This document shows, piece by piece, positions 15,910-29,608 of a DNA stretch of 64,000 bases. The DNA comes from Escherichia phage vB_Eco_F31. Numbering within the stretch: position 1 is the stretch's first letter; every line of letters starts with the position of its first letter. The notes beneath the pieces were generated by a model. That model worked only from the letters and a program-made list of their open reading frames with translations. It did not search any database and was not told where the DNA came from. Made by a program: the position numbers and the translations under genes. The DNA is taken from sequence record OP870147.1. One strand, written 5' to 3'.

Positions 15910-16107
15910 ATGTTTAAACTTCCATCGTTAATCAACGCTATTAAAGGCAATAAAAAGAAAACTGCTATCGCTGCAATAGTTGTAGGTGGCATTATTTCAT
16001 GGAACTTCGGGATTGCACCATTGTTAGTTGCCCATGGTGTTATAGTTCCTTCTGTTCCGTTGGATACTGTGGTTGATTTGGCCTTTGCTATTGTAGGACT
16101 GGTTTAA
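15910..16107 (+). CDS. small hydrophobic membrane protein (plus strand)
   Basis: 65-aa ORF with strong RBS (AAGGAG-N7-ATG); two predicted TM segments; the only convincing plus-strand ORF in the window. Confidence 0.45.
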   Translation: MFKLPSLINAIKGNKKKTAIAAIVVGGIISWNFGIAPLLVAHGVIVPSVPLDTVVDLAFAIVGLV

Positions 16108-17126
16108 ATCTTCGAATAACGAGATAATCTCATTTTAGCATGCAACCCACTTGAAATATTCTGTTTCATATATTCTAAAATTTCTTGTGGTGTTGCATTT
16201 TCTTTCATTACCATATCATTCACATCCTTTGAACTCCATGGAGCTCGGTCCCAGAACATGACACGTTCGCCTGCATCAACTAATCGCTTCATGCGAGCTA
16301 TAGTATCCGGATGCCTAGGTTCATTATCCATTACCCATACCCGACGTTCTTTAAATGGTACCACATCTAAATCTATTGAGCCGCCTGTAATAGCGATTGC
16401 ATTGGGTATGAATAAACTATCAATAGGGCCTTCCATTACCCAGACGTCTCCTTCCTTAACACGTTCAACACCATAAATTTTTGTTGCAGACTCAAACGCT
16501 TTAATAGTGATATATTTCTGAGGAGCATCTTTACGAAGTGCACGTCCTTGGAATGACTCGGCCTTCCCATCTTTATTAAAAATAGGAATAACTAAACGTG
16601 GTTCGGGAATCTCTTTCTTATACGTACCAGGTTGAATCTTGTTGACCAATTTGGGCCATTCTAATGTGAACCATAATCTGTTCCACGATTCTTTAGGAAT
16701 ACACCGAGACTTAACATATTTCACAATAGGATGCTCTTCAGGCAACTTGTCCAGACGAGAACAAGACGGCAAAGAATTTATAGTCTTTTTCTCTGGCTCC
16801 GGCTTAGCTTCAGGAACCTTTTCAATCTTTGGTTCCATTCTAGCTTTTTCTTTACGAACTTCCATTAGATATTCGCGATAAAGCTCTTCATCATACTCTT
16901 TTAAGTATCCTGAAATTGTATTGTGGTATTGACAGTTATAGCAATGTACATTACCAGGAGTACCACCATAATACCATCCGCGAGCTTTCATTGCATCTGT
17001 CTGGGAGTCGCCACAAACTGGACATCGAAATGTTAATTTAAATGTGCTTGAATTATTGATTTGTCTAAAACGAGGTAGGTGAGAAAACGCACGATAAGCA
17101 AATTCATTATCTATCCATTCAGCCAT
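16104..17126 (-). CDS. 61: DNA primase gp61 (zinc ribbon + Toprim)
   Basis: 340 aa; CPVCGDS...CYNC zinc ribbon; T4 gp61 is 342 aa; syntenic. Confidence 0.8.
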   Translation of the reverse strand: MAEWIDNEFAYRAFSHLPRFRQINNSSTFKLTFRCPVCGDSQTDAMKARGWYYGGTPGNVHCYNCQYHNTISGYLKEYDEELYREYLMEVRKEKARMEPKIEKVPEAKPEPEKKTINSLPSCSRLDKLPEEHPIVKYVKSRCIPKESWNRLWFTLEWPKLVNKIQPGTYKKEIPEPRLVIPIFNKDGKAESFQGRALRKDAPQKYITIKAFESATKIYGVERVKEGDVWVMEGPIDSLFIPNAIAITGGSIDLDVVPFKERRVWVMDNEPRHPDTIARMKRLVDAGERVMFWDRAPWSSKDVNDMVMKENATPQEILEYMKQNISSGLHAKMRLSRYSKI

Positions 17127-17851: not shown

Positions 17852-18511
17852 TTAACCTCGATTCATAAATGCATTAAATATTTGGTCATCAACAGAAATT
17901 TCTAATTCGACTTCAATTGCTTCAGCCTTTTCTTCAGGTGGTAATTCGTATCCACACACTACAATTTTTTCATCGATATCAAAATATACAGAAGCAATAC
18001 GATTAATGTTATTTTCAGTTAAGTCTAAATCAACATCAACATCTTTTTGACCTACACTTAAAGGATAACTAATACGGGTTATTTTATTATCTTTAACAAA
18101 GAGTCCACCAACATACTCTGTACTACGTTTGAAGTTTACACGTTTCCGAAATGAAAGATATGATGCATCTTTACCATGAGCTCGGCTCATAGGACATAAT
18201 GAATAGCTAGAATAAGAGATGTCAAATCCTACACCTTCAATATGAGCCAACGTGTCATGATTAAACCAATTATAATCATACGCCAAATCCATTATATTGT
18301 AATATGTGAAAGGCACAGGATTAACATCATATGTTGTACCTTTAAAATCTGCCCAGGCAACGATTTCGTTATCTTTAACAATTACAAAAATTACACCAAT
18401 ATGGTATCCGTTATTATTTTCATTCGGCGTTATATTATAACATTGTGCATTAGGAAATTTACCATATTTAAATGGTGCGTTTTTGTGCATATAATAAATC
18501 ATATTATTCAC
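17852..18511 (-). CDS. hypothetical protein (61.2 position)
   Basis: 219-aa ORF. Confidence 0.5.
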   Translation of the reverse strand: MNNMIYYMHKNAPFKYGKFPNAQCYNITPNENNNGYHIGVIFVIVKDNEIVAWADFKGTTYDVNPVPFTYYNIMDLAYDYNWFNHDTLAHIEGVGFDISYSSYSLCPMSRAHGKDASYLSFRKRVNFKRSTEYVGGLFVKDNKITRISYPLSVGQKDVDVDLDLTENNINRIASVYFDIDEKIVVCGYELPPEEKAEAIEVELEISVDDQIFNAFMNRG

Positions 18512-18797
18512 CTGTGATTTCGGTTACGATATCTTTGTTATCGAAATTAGGGTCACAATACAAAACATAGTTGTACTGCATGATACCGCCAGACTTAAGT
18601 TGTTCAACAACTTTATTAACCATATTAGGACGGTCTCGTTTAGTGATGTTCATAATATCAGAGAAGATTTGTTGTTCAACATCTTCTTGATTTGCAGTCA
18701 TTGACCACTCACAGAGGTCTTTATCATAACCTGCCGTAACTGGAGCCGGTGCACATGATACTGCAAGTAAGATTGCTGCCAATGATAACTTTTTCAT
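18504..18797 (-). CDS. sp: periplasmic protein with signal peptide, Sp (spackle)-like
   Basis: 97 aa; N-terminal signal peptide (MKKLSLAAILLAVSCAPA); size and position match T4 sp. Confidence 0.5.
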   Translation of the reverse strand: MKKLSLAAILLAVSCAPAPVTAGYDKDLCEWSMTANQEDVEQQIFSDIMNITKRDRPNMVNKVVEQLKSGGIMQYNYVLYCDPNFDNKDIVTEITGE

Positions 18798-18827
18798 TTT
18801 AACTCCTTAGTTGATTTGATAGGACTA

Positions 18828-18857
18828 CTATACTATAGTCCATCTATAATGTAAACA
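18828..18857 (-). promoter_or_regulatory. early promoter upstream of sp
   Basis: Minus strand GTTTAC-N17-TATAGT-AGTCCTATC. Confidence 0.5.
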
Positions 18858-18860
18858 AGT

Positions 18861-19109
18861 TTATTCTTTTTCGCGAATAATAATTACTTGTTGAGGCTGC
18901 TGAGCCGATTTCTTTTCGGCAACGATAGACCAAATTAAAGTTCCAATCCAACCAACCATCGTCCAGTTAAAGAGTAAAGATACAAAGAAGATTGCTGTTG
19001 TGCTTTTTGTGCCACGAATAAGTGCGATTACCCAAGGCAACATGTAAATGATGATTGAACCAATACCTGCGATTAAAACTGCTACTGAACTAGCTACGAA
19101 TAATTCCAT
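18861..19109 (-). CDS. small membrane protein (2 TM)
   Basis: 82 aa, two hydrophobic helices; 61.4 position. Confidence 0.45.
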   Translation of the reverse strand: MELFVASSVAVLIAGIGSIIIYMLPWVIALIRGTKSTTAIFFVSLLFNWTMVGWIGTLIWSIVAEKKSAQQPQQVIIIREKE

Positions 19110-19170
19110 GTTAATTTCCTCTTGATTTGTTATGTTTATAGTATCTTATTTTAACTTTGGTGTAAACCAA

Positions 19171-19539
19171 TTAATTAAATTTGTTTAAACGTTCAATACA
19201 CTGGACGTAGTTATTCGCGATTTGTTTCTGGGTAGGCTCTTTACCAGTTGTTTCAACATAGCGAATGAATGCAATTTCAGTAGCCTGTAGACAATGTTCT
19301 TTAACGCGTTGTTCTTTTGACAATGCTACAGTATCAGAATCACGATAACGTTGAGCATGAGCATCAGCTTGAATCATTCGATTACCTACAGTAACCGGGT
19401 CTTCCACTTCAACTTTAGGTTGGTCGTACTGTTTAACATTCGGATTGTAAATCAGTTGGCCAACGTTATTAGGGATAAAGCCATGGGCACCACATCCGGT
19501 TAATCCAAATACCATTGCTAAAGCGATTAATTTTTTCAT
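19171..19539 (-). CDS. putative lipoprotein
   Basis: 122 aa; signal peptide with lipobox LTGC; no T4 counterpart that I recall. Confidence 0.5.
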   Translation of the reverse strand: MKKLIALAMVFGLTGCGAHGFIPNNVGQLIYNPNVKQYDQPKVEVEDPVTVGNRMIQADAHAQRYRDSDTVALSKEQRVKEHCLQATEIAFIRYVETTGKEPTQKQIANNYVQCIERLNKFN

Positions 19540-19568
19540 TTCAATTTCCTCTGTAGTTGATAGAAAGA

Positions 19569-19598
19569 TAGTAACACAGTATGTGGTGCTTGTAAACA
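19569..19598 (-). promoter_or_regulatory. early promoter upstream of the lipoprotein gene
   Basis: Minus strand GTTTAC-N17-TTACTA. Confidence 0.4.
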
Positions 19599-19610
19599 GT
19601 TATTTTAAAA

Positions 19611-19799
19611 TTATCGAAAATCTGCTTCAAAAACTTTCTCGTCATTAACAAATGCTTTAACTAATGCGTTGTTCACTTCAGCAAGTTGTACCGCAACCCA
19701 CTCGATTTCTTCACGGTCACCTGATAACATGATATCTTTAGTGAACATATTATCATTTTTAAACCAGCCAATAAAAGTAACTTTAGTTAATTTGCTCAT
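19611..19799 (-). CDS. dmd: Dmd antitoxin (discriminator of mRNA degradation)
   Basis: about 62 aa from MSKLTKVTFIGWFKNDNMFTK, matching T4 Dmd as recalled; ATGA-coupled to the upstream ORF. Confidence 0.7.
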   Translation of the reverse strand: MSKLTKVTFIGWFKNDNMFTKDIMLSGDREEIEWVAVQLAEVNNALVKAFVNDEKVFEADFR

Positions 19800-20113
19800 A
19801 TTTCCTCGCAAAATGCCCATTCAGCATGATATACTGTAGCACCTTTAGTATCATTCATTTGAACTACATCTACCGGAGAAATTACTCGATAGAGACGTGG
19901 TTCACCTCCATAAGAGCGTGCTGCTCGTCCTGCATAAATCTTTGCTAAACCGATATCTTCAGTAAAGAATACACGATCCAAGTTTTTCTTACGTCCTGTT
20001 TCAGACAGAACTCCTGTTTCCTCAGGAGGACAAAGCATGTTTTCGATGTTAGCTGAACTACTTGAACCGTGATAAAAAATCTTAAATTCTGCTTTACAAT
20101 CGATGGTTTTCAT
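19796..20113 (-). CDS. hypothetical protein (HGS...Y...Y...E arrangement)
   Basis: 105-aa ORF translationally coupled to dmd; own early promoter. Confidence 0.5.
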   Translation of the reverse strand: MKTIDCKAEFKIFYHGSSSSANIENMLCPPEETGVLSETGRKKNLDRVFFTEDIGLAKIYAGRAARSYGGEPRLYRVISPVDVVQMNDTKGATVYHAEWAFCEEI

Positions 20114-20630: not shown

Positions 20631-22073
20631 TTAAAATTTTAACTCGTTGGCTAAGCTATCTAGGTCAGCACGTGTTGCTTTGGCTTTACCTACGCGTTCC
20701 GTACGATTCACCTCTGCCTGACGCATCTGAGCACCTGCGTTTTCATTTACTGTGTTAGGTGTGTTCATGCCTTCTTGCTCAATCTCAATCCATTTCTGGT
20801 TGCCTTTACGTACACCCATCAGGAATTTATTCCACTTATTCTTATCACCATATCGTGATTTGATTTGTTTGATAAGTTGTTGTTCAGCTTGTGCAAGTTC
20901 TTCGGTTTCAATTACAGCCAACATGAAATCTGCCGTTGCTGGTAAACCTGCTGATTCTGCAATATCGCTCATGTTCATATCCGAAGCATCCCATGCTGCA
21001 CGTCCTACTTGAGCTGCAGTCCATAGAACTGTTTCAGATTCTACTGCTAATGCACGAAGTTCTTCTGCGATAGCTTTAACTAATGTGTAGCTATTTTCAG
21101 TGTAAACTCTGATACGACAAGACCCACAAATACCTAAGTAATCAACCATGATTACAGATGGAACAAAGTTCTTCTTAAGTTTTAACTCATTAAGCAATGC
21201 ACGGAATGTATTAGCATTAGCTCCGCCAGTAGGATACTGCTTAACTACTAAACGTCCTAATGTTGTTTTTGAACGCCATTTTTCCATCTTGGCTTTATAT
21301 TCAGCATAAGATACGTTACCATCATCAATATCATCGAGTGATACGTCAAGCATGTTTGCATCTATACGCTTAGCACAAACTTCTTCAGCCATTTCCATGG
21401 AAATATAAAGAACATTATGACCTGTTTGAAGATAATCTGCAGCAAGTGAACAAAGGCCTAAAGATTTACCGACGTTAACACCAGCCATTAAAACGTTTAG
21501 TGTACCTGTTTCAGCACCACCTTTAGTGATTTTATTCAAAATGTTTAATTTGAACGGGACCTTACGTGCTTTATTTAGATAAGAAAGCCAGCGTGCTTCG
21601 TAGTCTTCCATCCAGTCATGTCCAACATAACTATCGAACGAAATTGAAAGTGCTTGACGCATAATATCAGGAATAGCTCCTACGTCAGGCATTTTCTTGT
21701 TACGTTGTTCTGGAGGTAGTTCAGCATTAGACTGAATCTCAATGATTTTGGACGTAGCATTATACATCGCTTTTTGCTGGACATATTTCTCAGTTTCTTT
21801 AACCAACCATTCGTGGTCTTCAGGAGTATCAGCCAATTTTTCAATTAGGTCTGAAGTTCCTTTATATTCGGCTTCAGTTAAAGAACTGTTATCTAAAGCC
21901 ACCTTTAACGCATTGATAGATGGCATTGCATTATATTCGTTAACGTGGCTCTTTATAATTTTAAAGACATTTTTTGCCGGTCCACGCTCAAAATACTCAG
22001 AATCCATATAAGGCCAGACCTTAGAAAAATAAGCCTGGTCATATACTAGATGAGACAAAATAATTTCTACCAC
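20631..22073 (-). CDS. 41: replicative DNA helicase gp41 (DnaB-like)
   Basis: 480 aa; Walker A GVNVGKS; near-colinear with T4 gp41 as recalled. Confidence 0.9.
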   Translation of the reverse strand: MVEIILSHLVYDQAYFSKVWPYMDSEYFERGPAKNVFKIIKSHVNEYNAMPSINALKVALDNSSLTEAEYKGTSDLIEKLADTPEDHEWLVKETEKYVQQKAMYNATSKIIEIQSNAELPPEQRNKKMPDVGAIPDIMRQALSISFDSYVGHDWMEDYEARWLSYLNKARKVPFKLNILNKITKGGAETGTLNVLMAGVNVGKSLGLCSLAADYLQTGHNVLYISMEMAEEVCAKRIDANMLDVSLDDIDDGNVSYAEYKAKMEKWRSKTTLGRLVVKQYPTGGANANTFRALLNELKLKKNFVPSVIMVDYLGICGSCRIRVYTENSYTLVKAIAEELRALAVESETVLWTAAQVGRAAWDASDMNMSDIAESAGLPATADFMLAVIETEELAQAEQQLIKQIKSRYGDKNKWNKFLMGVRKGNQKWIEIEQEGMNTPNTVNENAGAQMRQAEVNRTERVGKAKATRADLDSLANELKF

Positions 22074-29464: not shown

Positions 29465-29608
29465 CTAGTTAAAGCATTCATACTTTGCTTGTAGTCCAAT
29501 CATAATCCATCCAATTACAAGTGTTGGAATCATTACTGGAGCCGTTAAGCTCCAGTAGATAGTCATGACAAGCATCAATAGTAAAAGTCCTATTGTTATT
29601 GCTTTCAT
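29465..29608 (-). CDS. small hydrophobic peptide
   Basis: 47-aa ORF (MKAITIGLLLLMLVMTIYW...), ATGA-coupled to the SIS gene stop. Confidence 0.3.
   Translation of the reverse strand: MKAITIGLLLLMLVMTIYWSLTAPVMIPTLVIGWIMIGLQAKYECFN

What the first reader, a model, noticed from the sequence alone, without database searches (positions are those of the whole stretch)
18504..19539. Cluster of envelope-targeted small proteins: Sp-like periplasmic protein, 2-TM protein and an extra lipoprotein
Three consecutive genes encode a signal-peptide protein (Sp-like), a small 2-TM protein and a 122-aa lipoprotein (lipobox LTGC). The lipoprotein has no T4 counterpart that I recall. Such a cluster is typical of superinfection-exclusion or lysis-control functions.
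Basis: partly seen in the sequence, partly recalled or inferred. Interest (0 to 1): 0.4.

Follow-up and report, generated by a model that had tools for sequence, protein, structure and literature searches.

The report
Phage superinfection-exclusion genes sp, imm, imm.1
The three small envelope-targeted genes are the known T-even phage genes sp, imm and imm.1, laid out as in phage RB69; two of them block infection by later-arriving phages, and the third is an uncharacterised lipoprotein that sits next to imm in every T4-like phage genus where I found it.

Summary
Window 18504-19539 (minus strand) holds three consecutive ORFs with export signals, and each has its own GTTTAC-type early-promoter-like site and a Shine-Dalgarno sequence.

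They are known genes. The window is a Mosigvirus (RB69-like T-even phage), 98-99% identical to more than 150 sequenced genomes.
- ORF 1 is Spackle (PF25676, 1e-42; T4 Sp structures 6x6o and 7cn6). It is a periplasmic inhibitor of the gp5 tail lysozyme.
- ORF 2 is Imm (PF14373). It is an inner-membrane protein reported to bind the tape-measure protein gp29.
- ORF 3 is Imm.1 (PF17578/DUF5481, phrog_1754).

The claim that the lipoprotein has no T4 counterpart is wrong: T4 imm.1 is about 35% identical, also has the LTGC lipobox, and is expressed early.

What remains open is Imm.1. It is a predicted outer-membrane lipoprotein with an invariant Cys pair. It lies next to imm in all 15 imm.1 loci read (five lineages, three flanking contexts), and phrog_1754 relatives flank imm in five further genera. 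No published function was found, and T4 CRISPRi knock-down scored it "Not Fit". I infer an accessory exclusion role (about 0.35).

Novelty: already known. Interest: low to moderate.

The parts
18504..18797 (-). sp (gene 61.3), Spackle. 97 aa: signal peptide 1-22, mature protein 23-97, with Cys29 and Cys81.
   Evidence: PF25676 1.1e-42 and phrog_1586 2.9e-42. phmmer to PDB 6x6o and 7cn6 gives 1.4e-39 over the full length. Cys29 and Cys81 are present; they form a disulfide in T4 Sp (PMC7677548).
18827..18855 (-). Early-promoter-like site upstream of sp (TTTACA-17-TATAGT, preceded by G).
   Evidence: Consensus scan. GTTTAC is invariant in the alignment of five upstream regions.
18861..19109 (-). 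imm, immunity to superinfection. 82-aa inner-membrane protein; R32 and W49 correspond to T4 Imm R33 and W50.
   Evidence: PF14373 1.8e-15 and phrog_1039 1.2e-30. 65% identical to T4-type Imm. Hydrophobic segments. Mutating R33 or W50 lowers T4 Imm activity (preprint 10.64898/2026.03.06.709160).
19138..19166 (-). Early-promoter-like site upstream of imm (TTTACA-17-TACTAT).
   Evidence: The 61-nt imm.1-imm spacer is specific to Mosigvirus; it is 7-14 nt in the other four lineages.
19171..19539 (-). imm.1. 122-aa predicted lipoprotein: lipobox LTGC with Cys16 and Gly at +2; a low-confidence, probably flexible linker to about residue 47; a YNPNVKQY motif; a helical C-terminal part carrying Cys83 and Cys114.
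   Evidence: PF17578 3.7e-9 (37.3 bits against a cut-off of 27) and phrog_1754 5.1e-29. 99% identical to RB69 Imm.1. Lipoprotein rule met. AlphaFold2 gives helices 75-98 and 104-120 at pLDDT 85-89. Invariant Y31, C83 and C114 across 10 lineages.
19568..19596 (-). Early-promoter-like site upstream of imm.1 (TTTACA-17-TACTAT with an upstream TG).

Best explanation
The stretch is the early-expressed superinfection-exclusion module of an RB69-type (Mosigvirus) T-even phage. It has three separately promoted genes whose products go to three envelope layers of the newly infected cell.

(1) Sp is exported by a cleavable signal peptide. In the periplasm it binds and inhibits the lysozyme domain of the tail-spike protein gp5 of a later-arriving phage, so the tail tube cannot pass the cell wall. 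This is shown for T4 Sp and inferred here from 66% identity and the conserved Cys29 and Cys81.

(2) Imm inserts into the inner membrane and binds the tape-measure protein gp29 released from the incoming tail, blocking formation of the DNA conduit. This is reported for T4 Imm in a 2026 preprint and inferred here from 65% identity and the conserved R32 and W49.

(3) Imm.1 is made as a lipoprotein precursor and is predicted to be lipidated at Cys16. Because it has no Asp at +2, it is predicted to be sorted to the inner leaflet of the outer membrane, holding a small Cys-containing helical domain on a roughly 30-residue flexible tether in the periplasm. Its function is not known. From its strict linkage to imm, I infer that it is an accessory, lineage-specific component of the same exclusion barrier, for example one that intercepts a tail-tip component on the outer-membrane side. 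I put this step at about 0.35. It is not required for Imm to work.
For: Identity of the locus:
- megablast gives 98.9% identity to Mosigvirus phage mogra; 154 records cover at least 80% of the query and 155 match at 95-99%.
- RB69 annotates the same order imm.1-imm-sp.
- Family matches are; the PDB match for Sp is.

Mechanisms from the literature:
- Sp forms a complex with gp5 lysozyme and inhibits it; its signal peptide is cleaved at 22/23 (PMC7677548; PMC7650644).
- Imm forms a complex with the tape-measure protein, and the W50A and R33A mutants lose activity (10.64898/2026.03.06.709160).

Early expression:
- Each gene has its own GTTTAC-17-TAnnnT site.
- T4 sp and imm.1 are classed as early at both RNA and protein level (PMC9697503 supplement).

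Imm.1 and imm as a unit:
- In all 15 loci carrying imm.1, which represent five lineages only 29-53% identical to one another, imm follows directly on the same strand. The gap is 7-14 nt, or 61 nt in Mosigvirus.
- This holds in three different flanking contexts: 43|..|42, dmd|..|sp, and frd.3|...
- In five further genera (Gelderlandvirus, Moonvirus, Jiaodavirus, Muldoonvirus, Gaprivervirus) the gene beside imm is a lipoprotein of the same PHROG, phrog_1754, with E-values from 1e-15 to 1e-48 over the full length.
- The lipobox Gly, Y31 and the Cys83/Cys114 pair are invariant, and the lipid-attachment Cys is present in 9 of 10 lineages.
- No lineage has Asp at +2.
- Imm.1 diverges much faster than Imm: 35% against 65% identity between Mosigvirus and T4-type, and 45% against 83% between T4-type and P0002. 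This fits a specificity or arms-race component.
- imm and sp have also become adjacent independently in Gualtarvirus.
Against: Nothing argues against the identities of Sp and Imm. Several points argue against an exclusion role for Imm.1:
- Plasmid-borne T4 Imm alone lowers T4 plating, so Imm.1 is not needed for that effect.
- In the T4 CRISPRi-ART screen imm scored 'Fit' and imm.1 'Not Fit' (PMC11879866 supplement).
- Imm homologues in unrelated phages (KP591P3, AbC62, RS-CA1) and in Gualtarvirus have no lipoprotein among the neighbouring annotated ORFs I checked.
- One metagenomic relative, P0002, has Phe in place of the lipid-attachment Cys and an AHA|S signal-peptidase-I site, so the anchor may be dispensable.
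- Linkage could reflect only shared early transcription.
- The structure model is poor overall (mean pLDDT 62), and fold searches found nothing outside the protein's own family.
- Lipidation and outer-membrane sorting are predicted by rule, not shown.
Confidence: 0.85

Rival explanations
1. Imm.1 has an envelope function unrelated to exclusion, and is linked to imm only because both are small early genes inherited together. Candidates are stabilising the envelope of the infected cell, handling the ejected contents of excluded phages (the lysis-inhibition signal), or countering a host envelope-based defence.
For: imm.1 knock-down has no fitness effect while imm knock-down does. Imm alone excludes. 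The neighbouring genes are a mix of anti-defence genes: Dmd, and AdfA/61.2 (PF23813, 6.5e-121). No similarity to any characterised protein was found.
Against: The adjacency survives three different relocations of the pair and sequence divergence down to about 20% identity across at least seven genera. That is more than expected for unrelated neighbours in the highly mosaic early regions of T-even phages.
Confidence: 0.4
2. Imm.1 is a receptor-masking lipoprotein like T5 Llp or T1/phi80 Cor. It would bind the outer-membrane receptor of the phage and stop adsorption of further virions to infected cells or debris.
For: It is a phage-encoded early lipoprotein predicted to reach the outer membrane. 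Its fast divergence between phage groups could track different receptors. One relative (PS2) gives a weak PHROG hit to Cor, E = 8e-4.
Against: That Cor hit covers only the signal peptide (residues 1-40) and no stretch passes on its own. The window protein matches no Llp or Cor family. From established T4 biology, superinfecting T-even phages still adsorb and eject, and this is the basis of lysis inhibition and of Imm/Sp action. The preprint likewise places Imm's block at tape-measure-protein pore formation at the inner membrane, after tail contraction. Blocking adsorption therefore does not fit.
Confidence: 0.08
3. The cluster is a lysis-control cassette, with the lipoprotein as an o-spanin-like or antiholin-like component.
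For: sp mutants were historically found through lysis phenotypes (RB69 annotation note; PMC7650644). A lipoprotein plus a membrane protein superficially resembles a spanin pair.
Against: All three genes have early-type promoter-like sites, and T4 imm.1 and sp are early at both RNA and protein level, whereas lysis genes are late. The membrane protein is Imm by HMM, not an i-spanin. No family match to spanins, holins or RI/RIII was found.
Confidence: 0.03

Closest known systems
Phage RB69 locus sp-imm-imm.1 (NC_004928, RB69p035-037)
   Same: Same three genes in the same order and orientation between dmd and gene 61.2. Imm.1 is 99% identical.
   Different: RB69 has gene 61.4 between dmd and imm.1, and the window lacks it. 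About 206 bp differ, as in phage mogra, and some relatives such as JS09 carry the insert.
Phage T4 sp (61.3), imm and imm.1
   Same: Orthologous families. Sp is 66% and Imm 65% identical. Imm.1 is about 35% identical with the same lipobox, the YNPNVK.Y motif and the C-terminal Cys pair. All are early genes.
   Different: In T4-type phages imm.1-imm lies between genes 43 and 42, apart from sp, which lies between 41 and 61. There imm.1 and imm are 7 nt apart; here they are 61 nt apart and imm has its own promoter-like site. The Mosigvirus Imm.1 lacks the QGPVVNQSD.GK segment and the first Cys pair (C-x12-C) of the T4-type protein.
phrog_1754 lipoproteins beside imm in Gelderlandvirus, Moonvirus, Jiaodavirus, Muldoonvirus and Gaprivervirus
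   Same: Same PHROG over the full length. They share the lipobox, a G.(L/V)(I/V)Y motif, two conserved Cys in a helical C-terminal part, and a position next to imm.
   Different: They are longer (146-167 aa), only 18-25% identical to the window protein, and mostly not recognised by Pfam DUF5481. Direct profile-profile comparison with the Imm.1 alignment matches only the first 30 columns. In Gaprivervirus the gene lies downstream of imm, after a 47-aa membrane ORF.
T5 Llp and T1/phi80 Cor (exclusion lipoproteins)
   Same: What it might work like: an early phage lipoprotein of the outer membrane tied to exclusion.
   Different: No sequence or fold similarity. Those proteins block the receptor FhuA, whereas T-even exclusion acts after adsorption.
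HK97 gp15 and pore-forming-colicin immunity proteins (for Imm)
   Same: Small inner-membrane proteins that block a pore-forming or tape-measure protein of the incoming agent. The authors of the 2026 preprint draw this comparison themselves.
   Different: Different families. No homology was tested or claimed here.

Membership tests
T4 Spackle (Pfam PF25676) | Full-length match to the family HMM above the gathering score. | tested here: met
   145 bits against a cut-off of 27; residues 1-96 match profile positions 1-96.
T4 Spackle (Pfam PF25676) | Cleavable N-terminal signal peptide, with the mature protein starting at G23-Y-D-K-D. | tested here: met
   The alignment to T4 Sp is colinear and 7cn6 starts at residue 23. 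N-terminal sequencing of T4 Sp shows the same cut. Cleavage in this phage is inferred, not measured.
T4 Spackle (Pfam PF25676) | Cys29-Cys81 disulfide pair. | tested here: met
   Cys is present at 29 and 81, invariant in five genera. The disulfide itself is described for T4 Sp.
T4 Spackle (Pfam PF25676) | Binds and inhibits the gp5 tail lysozyme. | not testable with these tools
   Needs biochemistry with RB69-type gp5.
Imm, superinfection immunity (Pfam PF14373) | Match to the family HMM above the gathering score. | tested here: met
   56.9 bits against a cut-off of 27.9; phrog_1039 1.2e-30.
Imm, superinfection immunity (Pfam PF14373) | Residues shown to matter in T4 Imm (R33, W50). | tested here: met
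   R32 and W49 occupy the equivalent positions (sequences; mutant data).
Imm, superinfection immunity (Pfam PF14373) | Binds the tape-measure protein gp29 and blocks DNA entry. | not testable with these tools
   Needs a plating assay and a pull-down.
Imm.1 (Pfam PF17578 DUF5481, phrog_1754) | Match to the family HMMs. | tested here: met
   PF17578 37.3 bits against a cut-off of 27; phrog_1754 5.1e-29. 99% identical to RB69 Imm.1.
Imm.1 (Pfam PF17578 DUF5481, phrog_1754) | Lies directly beside imm on the same strand. | tested here: met
   Window gap of 61 nt. All 15 imm.1 loci read have imm directly downstream, and relatives in five further genera are adjacent to imm.
Imm.1 (Pfam PF17578 DUF5481, phrog_1754) | Conserved Tyr and C-terminal Cys pair. 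| tested here: met
   Y31, C83 and C114 are invariant in 10 lineages.
Bacterial lipoprotein (PROSITE PS51257-type signal) | K/R in the first 7 residues, an uncharged h-region, and a lipobox [LIVMFWSTAG]2-[LIVMFYSTAGCQ]-[AGS]-C with the Cys at position 15-35. | tested here: met
   Imm.1 Cys16 passes the rule. Only 2 of 272 ORFs in the window pass it.
Bacterial lipoprotein (PROSITE PS51257-type signal) | Actual diacylglyceryl modification, LspA cleavage and Lol sorting. | not testable with these tools
   Needs globomycin or palmitate labelling and membrane fractionation. The absence of Asp at +2 in all lineages only predicts outer-membrane sorting.
Llp/Cor receptor-blocking lipoproteins | Sequence membership of the Llp or Cor families. 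| tested here: not met
   The window protein gives no PHROG or Pfam hit to them. The PS2 relative hits Cor only in the signal peptide.
Spackle paralogue (tested for Imm.1) | Profile similarity of the mature domains. | tested here: not met
   hhalign of the Imm.1 family against the Sp family aligns only the 19 signal-peptide columns. Sp structures are absent from the Foldseek PDB hits.

The most novel reading that the evidence does not exclude
Imm.1 (phrog_1754) is a so-far unrecognised third component of T-even superinfection exclusion, tethered to the outer membrane. On this reading it is a fast-evolving lipoprotein partner of Imm that captures a tail-tip component (gp5, gp27 or the tape-measure protein) on the outer-membrane side of the periplasm, and so sets which related phages are excluded. 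This could include the known one-sided exclusion of T4 by RB69.
Probability: 0.3. Interest if true: 0.55.

Novelty: already known. Interest (0 to 1): 0.27.

Why it matters
As a finding it is ordinary. The three genes are annotated in RB69 and in well over a hundred near-identical genomes, and the mechanisms of Sp (gp5 lysozyme inhibitor) and Imm (tape-measure-protein binder) have been worked out for T4.

The useful residue is Imm.1:
- It is an early protein detected in T4-infected cells, and I found no published function for it.
- GenBank often labels it 'immunity protein' purely because of its gene name.
- It belongs to a lipoprotein family that sits next to imm in at least seven genera of T4-like phages, despite divergence to about 20% identity.

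That makes a cheap and well-defined experiment worthwhile: delete or co-express imm.1 and measure exclusion strength and range. The result could add an outer-membrane layer to the current picture of how T-even phages shut the door behind them.

Tried and rejected
- **Structure of Imm.1.** Two AlphaFold2 runs, with 3- and 5-sequence alignments, gave mean pLDDT of 59 and 62. Only the helical hairpin 75-120 is confident.
- **Fold and sequence searches.** Foldseek against the PDB gave nothing with E <= 0.001. Against BFVD only the protein's own family matched. A profile search of PDB sequences gave only designed TIM barrels at E >= 0.04. There is no fold-based functional lead.
- **Family breadth by HMMER.** A profile search of 1.84 billion representative proteins found only 6 clusters, and IMG/VR gave only 7 loci. 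Pfam-level DUF5481 is therefore very narrow. The wider family appeared only through synteny plus PHROG.
- **Direct profile comparison.** hhalign of the Imm.1 alignment against the other imm-linked lipoproteins matched only the first 30 columns. I rest the family claim on phrog_1754, not on hhalign.
- **Imm.1 as a Spackle paralogue.** Rejected.
- **Literature.** Searches for 'imm.1' and 'DUF5481' found no functional study. There was only a gene-content remark (PMC5885020) and entries in omics and CRISPRi tables.
- **The 105-aa neighbour (19796-20113).** By eye I thought it resembled Arr-type ADP-ribosyltransferases. phmmer against the PDB at E <= 10 and Pfam gave nothing, so I dropped the idea.
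- **Sp as a lipoprotein.** Considered because its signal peptide passes the lipobox rule. It is disfavoured by N-terminal sequencing of T4 Sp and by the Cys-less signal peptide of the Gualtarvirus Sp homologue.
Full report
**What is there.** On the minus strand of window 18504-19539 lie three consecutive ORFs, at exactly the coordinates given:
- 19171-19539, 122 aa
- 18861-19109, 82 aa
- 18504-18797, 97 aa

They sit between the replication genes 41 (20631-22073) and 61 (16104-17126). Each has a GAGG/GGAG ribosome-binding site. Each also has its own promoter-like site of the form GTTTACA-17-TA(C/T)(T/A)(A/G)T, at 19596-19568, 19166-19138 and 18855-18827. The GTTTAC hexamer is invariant when these upstream regions are aligned with those of the next two genes upstream. 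From established knowledge, this is the signature of T4 early promoters.

**Which phage.** The 1.5-kb region is 98.9% identical to Escherichia phage mogra. In total 155 phage records match at 95-99%, and 154 cover at least 80% of the query. Those inspected are Mosigvirus (RB69-like, Tevenvirinae). The RB69 reference genome annotates the same three genes as sp, imm and imm.1, in the same order.

**Sp.**
- The 97-aa protein matches Pfam T4_Spackle end to end (1.1e-42) and the solved T4 Spackle chains 6x6o and 7cn6 (1.4e-39). It is 66% identical to T4 Sp.
- The mature T4 protein starts at residue 23. N-terminal sequencing of the periplasmic protein shows that 22 residues are removed (PMC7650644). 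The window protein has the equivalent VTA|GYDKD junction.
- Cys29 and Cys81, which form a disulfide in T4 Sp (PMC7677548), are present.
- T4 Sp forms a 1:1 complex with the gp5 tail lysozyme and inhibits it.

**Imm.**
- The 82-aa protein matches PF14373 (1.8e-15) and phrog_1039, 'immunity to superinfection' (1.2e-30). It is 65% identical to T4-type Imm.
- It has two long hydrophobic stretches.
- A 2026 preprint reports that T4 Imm co-purifies with the tape-measure protein gp29 and gives a cryo-EM structure of the complex. It also reports that R33A and W50A weaken exclusion, and that plasmid-borne Imm alone lowers T4 plating (10.64898/2026.03.06.709160). The equivalent residues, R32 and W49, are conserved here.

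**The lipoprotein is Imm.1, not a gene without a T4 counterpart.**
- It matches PF17578/DUF5481 (37.3 bits against a cut-off of 27) and phrog_1754 (5.1e-29).
- It is 99% identical to RB69 Imm.1 and 32-35% identical to the Imm.1 of about 500 T4-type genomes.
- T4-type Imm.1 carries the same LGLTGC lipobox.
- The window protein satisfies the PROSITE-type lipoprotein rule with Cys16. Only two of the 272 six-frame ORFs of at least 50 aa in the window do so, the other being Sp.
- In T4, imm.1 (T4p046, P18057) is classed as early at both RNA and protein level, so it is a real, expressed gene (PMC9697503 supplement).

**Anatomy of Imm.1.**
- AlphaFold2 is unconfident for residues 1-47, which are the signal peptide and a probably flexible linker. 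It predicts helices at 48-67, 75-98 and 104-120, the last two at pLDDT 85-89.
- Across ten lineages the invariant positions are the lipobox Gly, Tyr31 (in the motif YNPNVK.Y of the close family) and Cys83/Cys114. The lipid-attachment Cys is present in 9 of 10.
- The Cys pair sits on the two confident helices. It is compatible with a disulfide in the oxidising periplasm, but I could not verify this.
- No lineage has Asp at +2. By the E. coli sorting rule (established knowledge), this predicts delivery to the outer membrane.
- Fold and sequence searches against solved structures and viral models gave nothing beyond the protein's own family. The mature domain shows no detectable relationship to Sp.

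**Linkage to imm.** This is the main thing I can add.
- Pfam-level Imm.1 is very narrow. A profile search of 1.84 billion representative proteins found only six clusters, and IMG/VR held seven loci.
- In all 15 loci that carry imm.1, imm follows directly on the same strand.
- These loci represent five lineages that are only 29-53% identical to one another, and they cover three flanking contexts: 43|imm.1-imm|42 in T4-type phages and two metagenomic lineages; dmd|imm.1-imm|sp in Mosigvirus; and frd.3|imm.1-imm in a third metagenomic lineage.
- The intergenic gap is 7-14 nt everywhere except Mosigvirus. There it is 61 nt and holds a promoter-like site.
- In Gelderlandvirus, Moonvirus, Jiaodavirus and Muldoonvirus, the ORF directly upstream of imm is a 146-148-aa lipoprotein. 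In Gaprivervirus, a 167-aa lipoprotein lies just downstream of imm.
- All of these fall in phrog_1754 over their full length, with E-values from 1e-15 to 1e-48. My own hhalign comparisons linked them to Imm.1 proper only over the first 30 columns, so the homology rests on the PHROG profile plus shared features.
- Imm.1 diverges much faster than Imm: 35% against 65%, and 45% against 83%.

**Limits of that linkage.**
- Imm homologues occur in 1,040 phage records against 656 for Imm.1 by tblastn.
- In the unrelated phages KP591P3, AbC62 and RS-CA1, and in Gualtarvirus, none of the neighbouring annotated ORFs I checked carries a lipobox.
- Imm alone excludes T4 when expressed from a plasmid.
- In the T4 CRISPRi-ART screen, imm scored 'Fit' (1.40, p = 0.02) and imm.1 'Not Fit' (-0.77) (PMC11879866 supplement).
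- One relative, P0002, has LAGF in place of the lipobox and a signal-peptidase-I-type AHA|S site.
- Imm.1 is therefore at most an accessory factor.

**How the module most likely works.**
- Shown for T4 and inferred here by orthology: right after infection, Sp in the periplasm neutralises the gp5 lysozyme of a second phage, and Imm in the inner membrane traps its tape-measure protein. The second genome therefore cannot enter.
- Inferred only: Imm.1 hangs from the outer membrane on a flexible tether and adds a lineage-specific layer to the same barrier (about 0.35). The main rival is an unrelated envelope function that merely travels with imm (about 0.4).
- Receptor masking of the Llp/Cor type is unlikely, because T-even exclusion acts after adsorption and tail contraction (established T4 biology) and there is no family similarity.
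- A lysis cassette is very unlikely, because the genes are early.

**Why the trio is together here.**
- In T4-type phages, imm.1-imm lies next to gene 42.
- In RB69-type phages the interval between genes 43 and uvsX carries a different gene set, mostly sugar- and nucleotide-metabolism-type genes. A small ORF there is annotated as 'similar to T4 42-imm intercistronic region'.
- This suggests the pair was displaced from that site and now sits beside sp.
- imm and sp are also adjacent, with overlapping stop and start codons, in the distant Gualtarvirus PSTRCR_127. That is an independent case of clustering of the two exclusion genes.

**Verdict.** The exclusion reading is right for two genes, and the 'no T4 counterpart' claim is wrong. 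The locus is already known and annotated. What remains of interest is Imm.1, a conserved, uncharacterised lipoprotein linked to imm, which is worth a simple genetic test.

Noticed in passing
window 18504-18797 (Sp residues 11-15); L017, L018, L019: The Sp signal peptide contains an invariant Ser14-Cys15 ([AV][VAS]SC) that passes the PROSITE lipoprotein rule in Mosigvirus, T4, Dhakavirus and Jiaodavirus. However, T4 Sp released from the periplasm is cleaved at 22/23, and the Gualtarvirus Sp homologue has no Cys in its signal peptide. A membrane-bound lipidated sub-population has not been excluded.
   Followed up: partly
window 17852-18502 (-): The gene just downstream of sp (T4 61.2) matches Pfam AdfA, anti-DarT factor A (6.5e-121). 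Together with Dmd upstream, the exclusion trio is therefore embedded among early anti-defence genes. The likely start is the ATG at 18502 as annotated in phage mogra, not the GTG at 18511 listed by the ORF finder.
   Followed up: partly
window 19611-19799 (-) and 19796-20113 (-): Dmd (antitoxin against RnlA/LsoA; PF17587 1.1e-20). The family match starts at residue 8-11 of the 69-aa ORF, so the real start is probably the ATG at 19799 (62 aa, as annotated in mogra). That start overlaps the stop of the upstream 105-aa gene of unknown function (phrog_2110) in an ATGA.
   Followed up: partly
window about 19540-19610, compared with L002 3228-3440: RB69 and some relatives such as JS09 carry gene 61.4 (about 206 bp extra) between dmd and imm.1. 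The window and phage mogra lack it. This is an indel polymorphism within Mosigvirus.
   Followed up: partly
L021 984-1472; L022 1022-1462; L023 1011-1454; L024 1046-1492; L008 2474-3004: Lipoproteins of phrog_1754 flank imm in Gelderlandvirus, Moonvirus, Jiaodavirus, Muldoonvirus and Gaprivervirus. All are annotated as 'hypothetical protein'.
   Followed up: yes
L028 2019-2452: In Providencia phage PSTRCR_127 (Gualtarvirus), a 64-aa Imm homologue overlaps the start of an 80-aa Spackle homologue. Both are annotated as hypothetical. This is an independent imm-sp fusion of neighbourhoods.
   Followed up: partly
L008 2347-2490; L020 1740-1883: In Gaprivervirus a 47-aa strongly hydrophobic ORF sits between imm and the lipoprotein gene. 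It may be a further small membrane component of the module.
   Followed up: no
L016 7424-7534 (RB69ORF054c); window about 29465-29608: RB69 annotates a tiny ORF near gene 43 as 'similar to T4 42-imm intercistronic region'. It may be a remnant of the ancestral imm site. The interval between genes 43 and uvsX there carries a different gene set from T4 (thymidylate kinase, peptidase, phosphoheptose isomerase, arabinose-5-phosphate isomerase and others).
   Followed up: no
protein P0003 (ENA metagenome): A 198-aa database protein joins a DNA polymerase I fragment (PF00476) to the last 28 residues of Mosigvirus Imm.1 at 100% identity. It is almost certainly an assembly chimera.
   Followed up: no
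GenBank annotations of imm.1 orthologues: imm.1 is variously labelled 'immunity protein', 'putative membrane protein', 'iduronate sulfatase' or 'superinfection immunity protein'. None of these labels rests on an experiment that I could find.
   Followed up: partly
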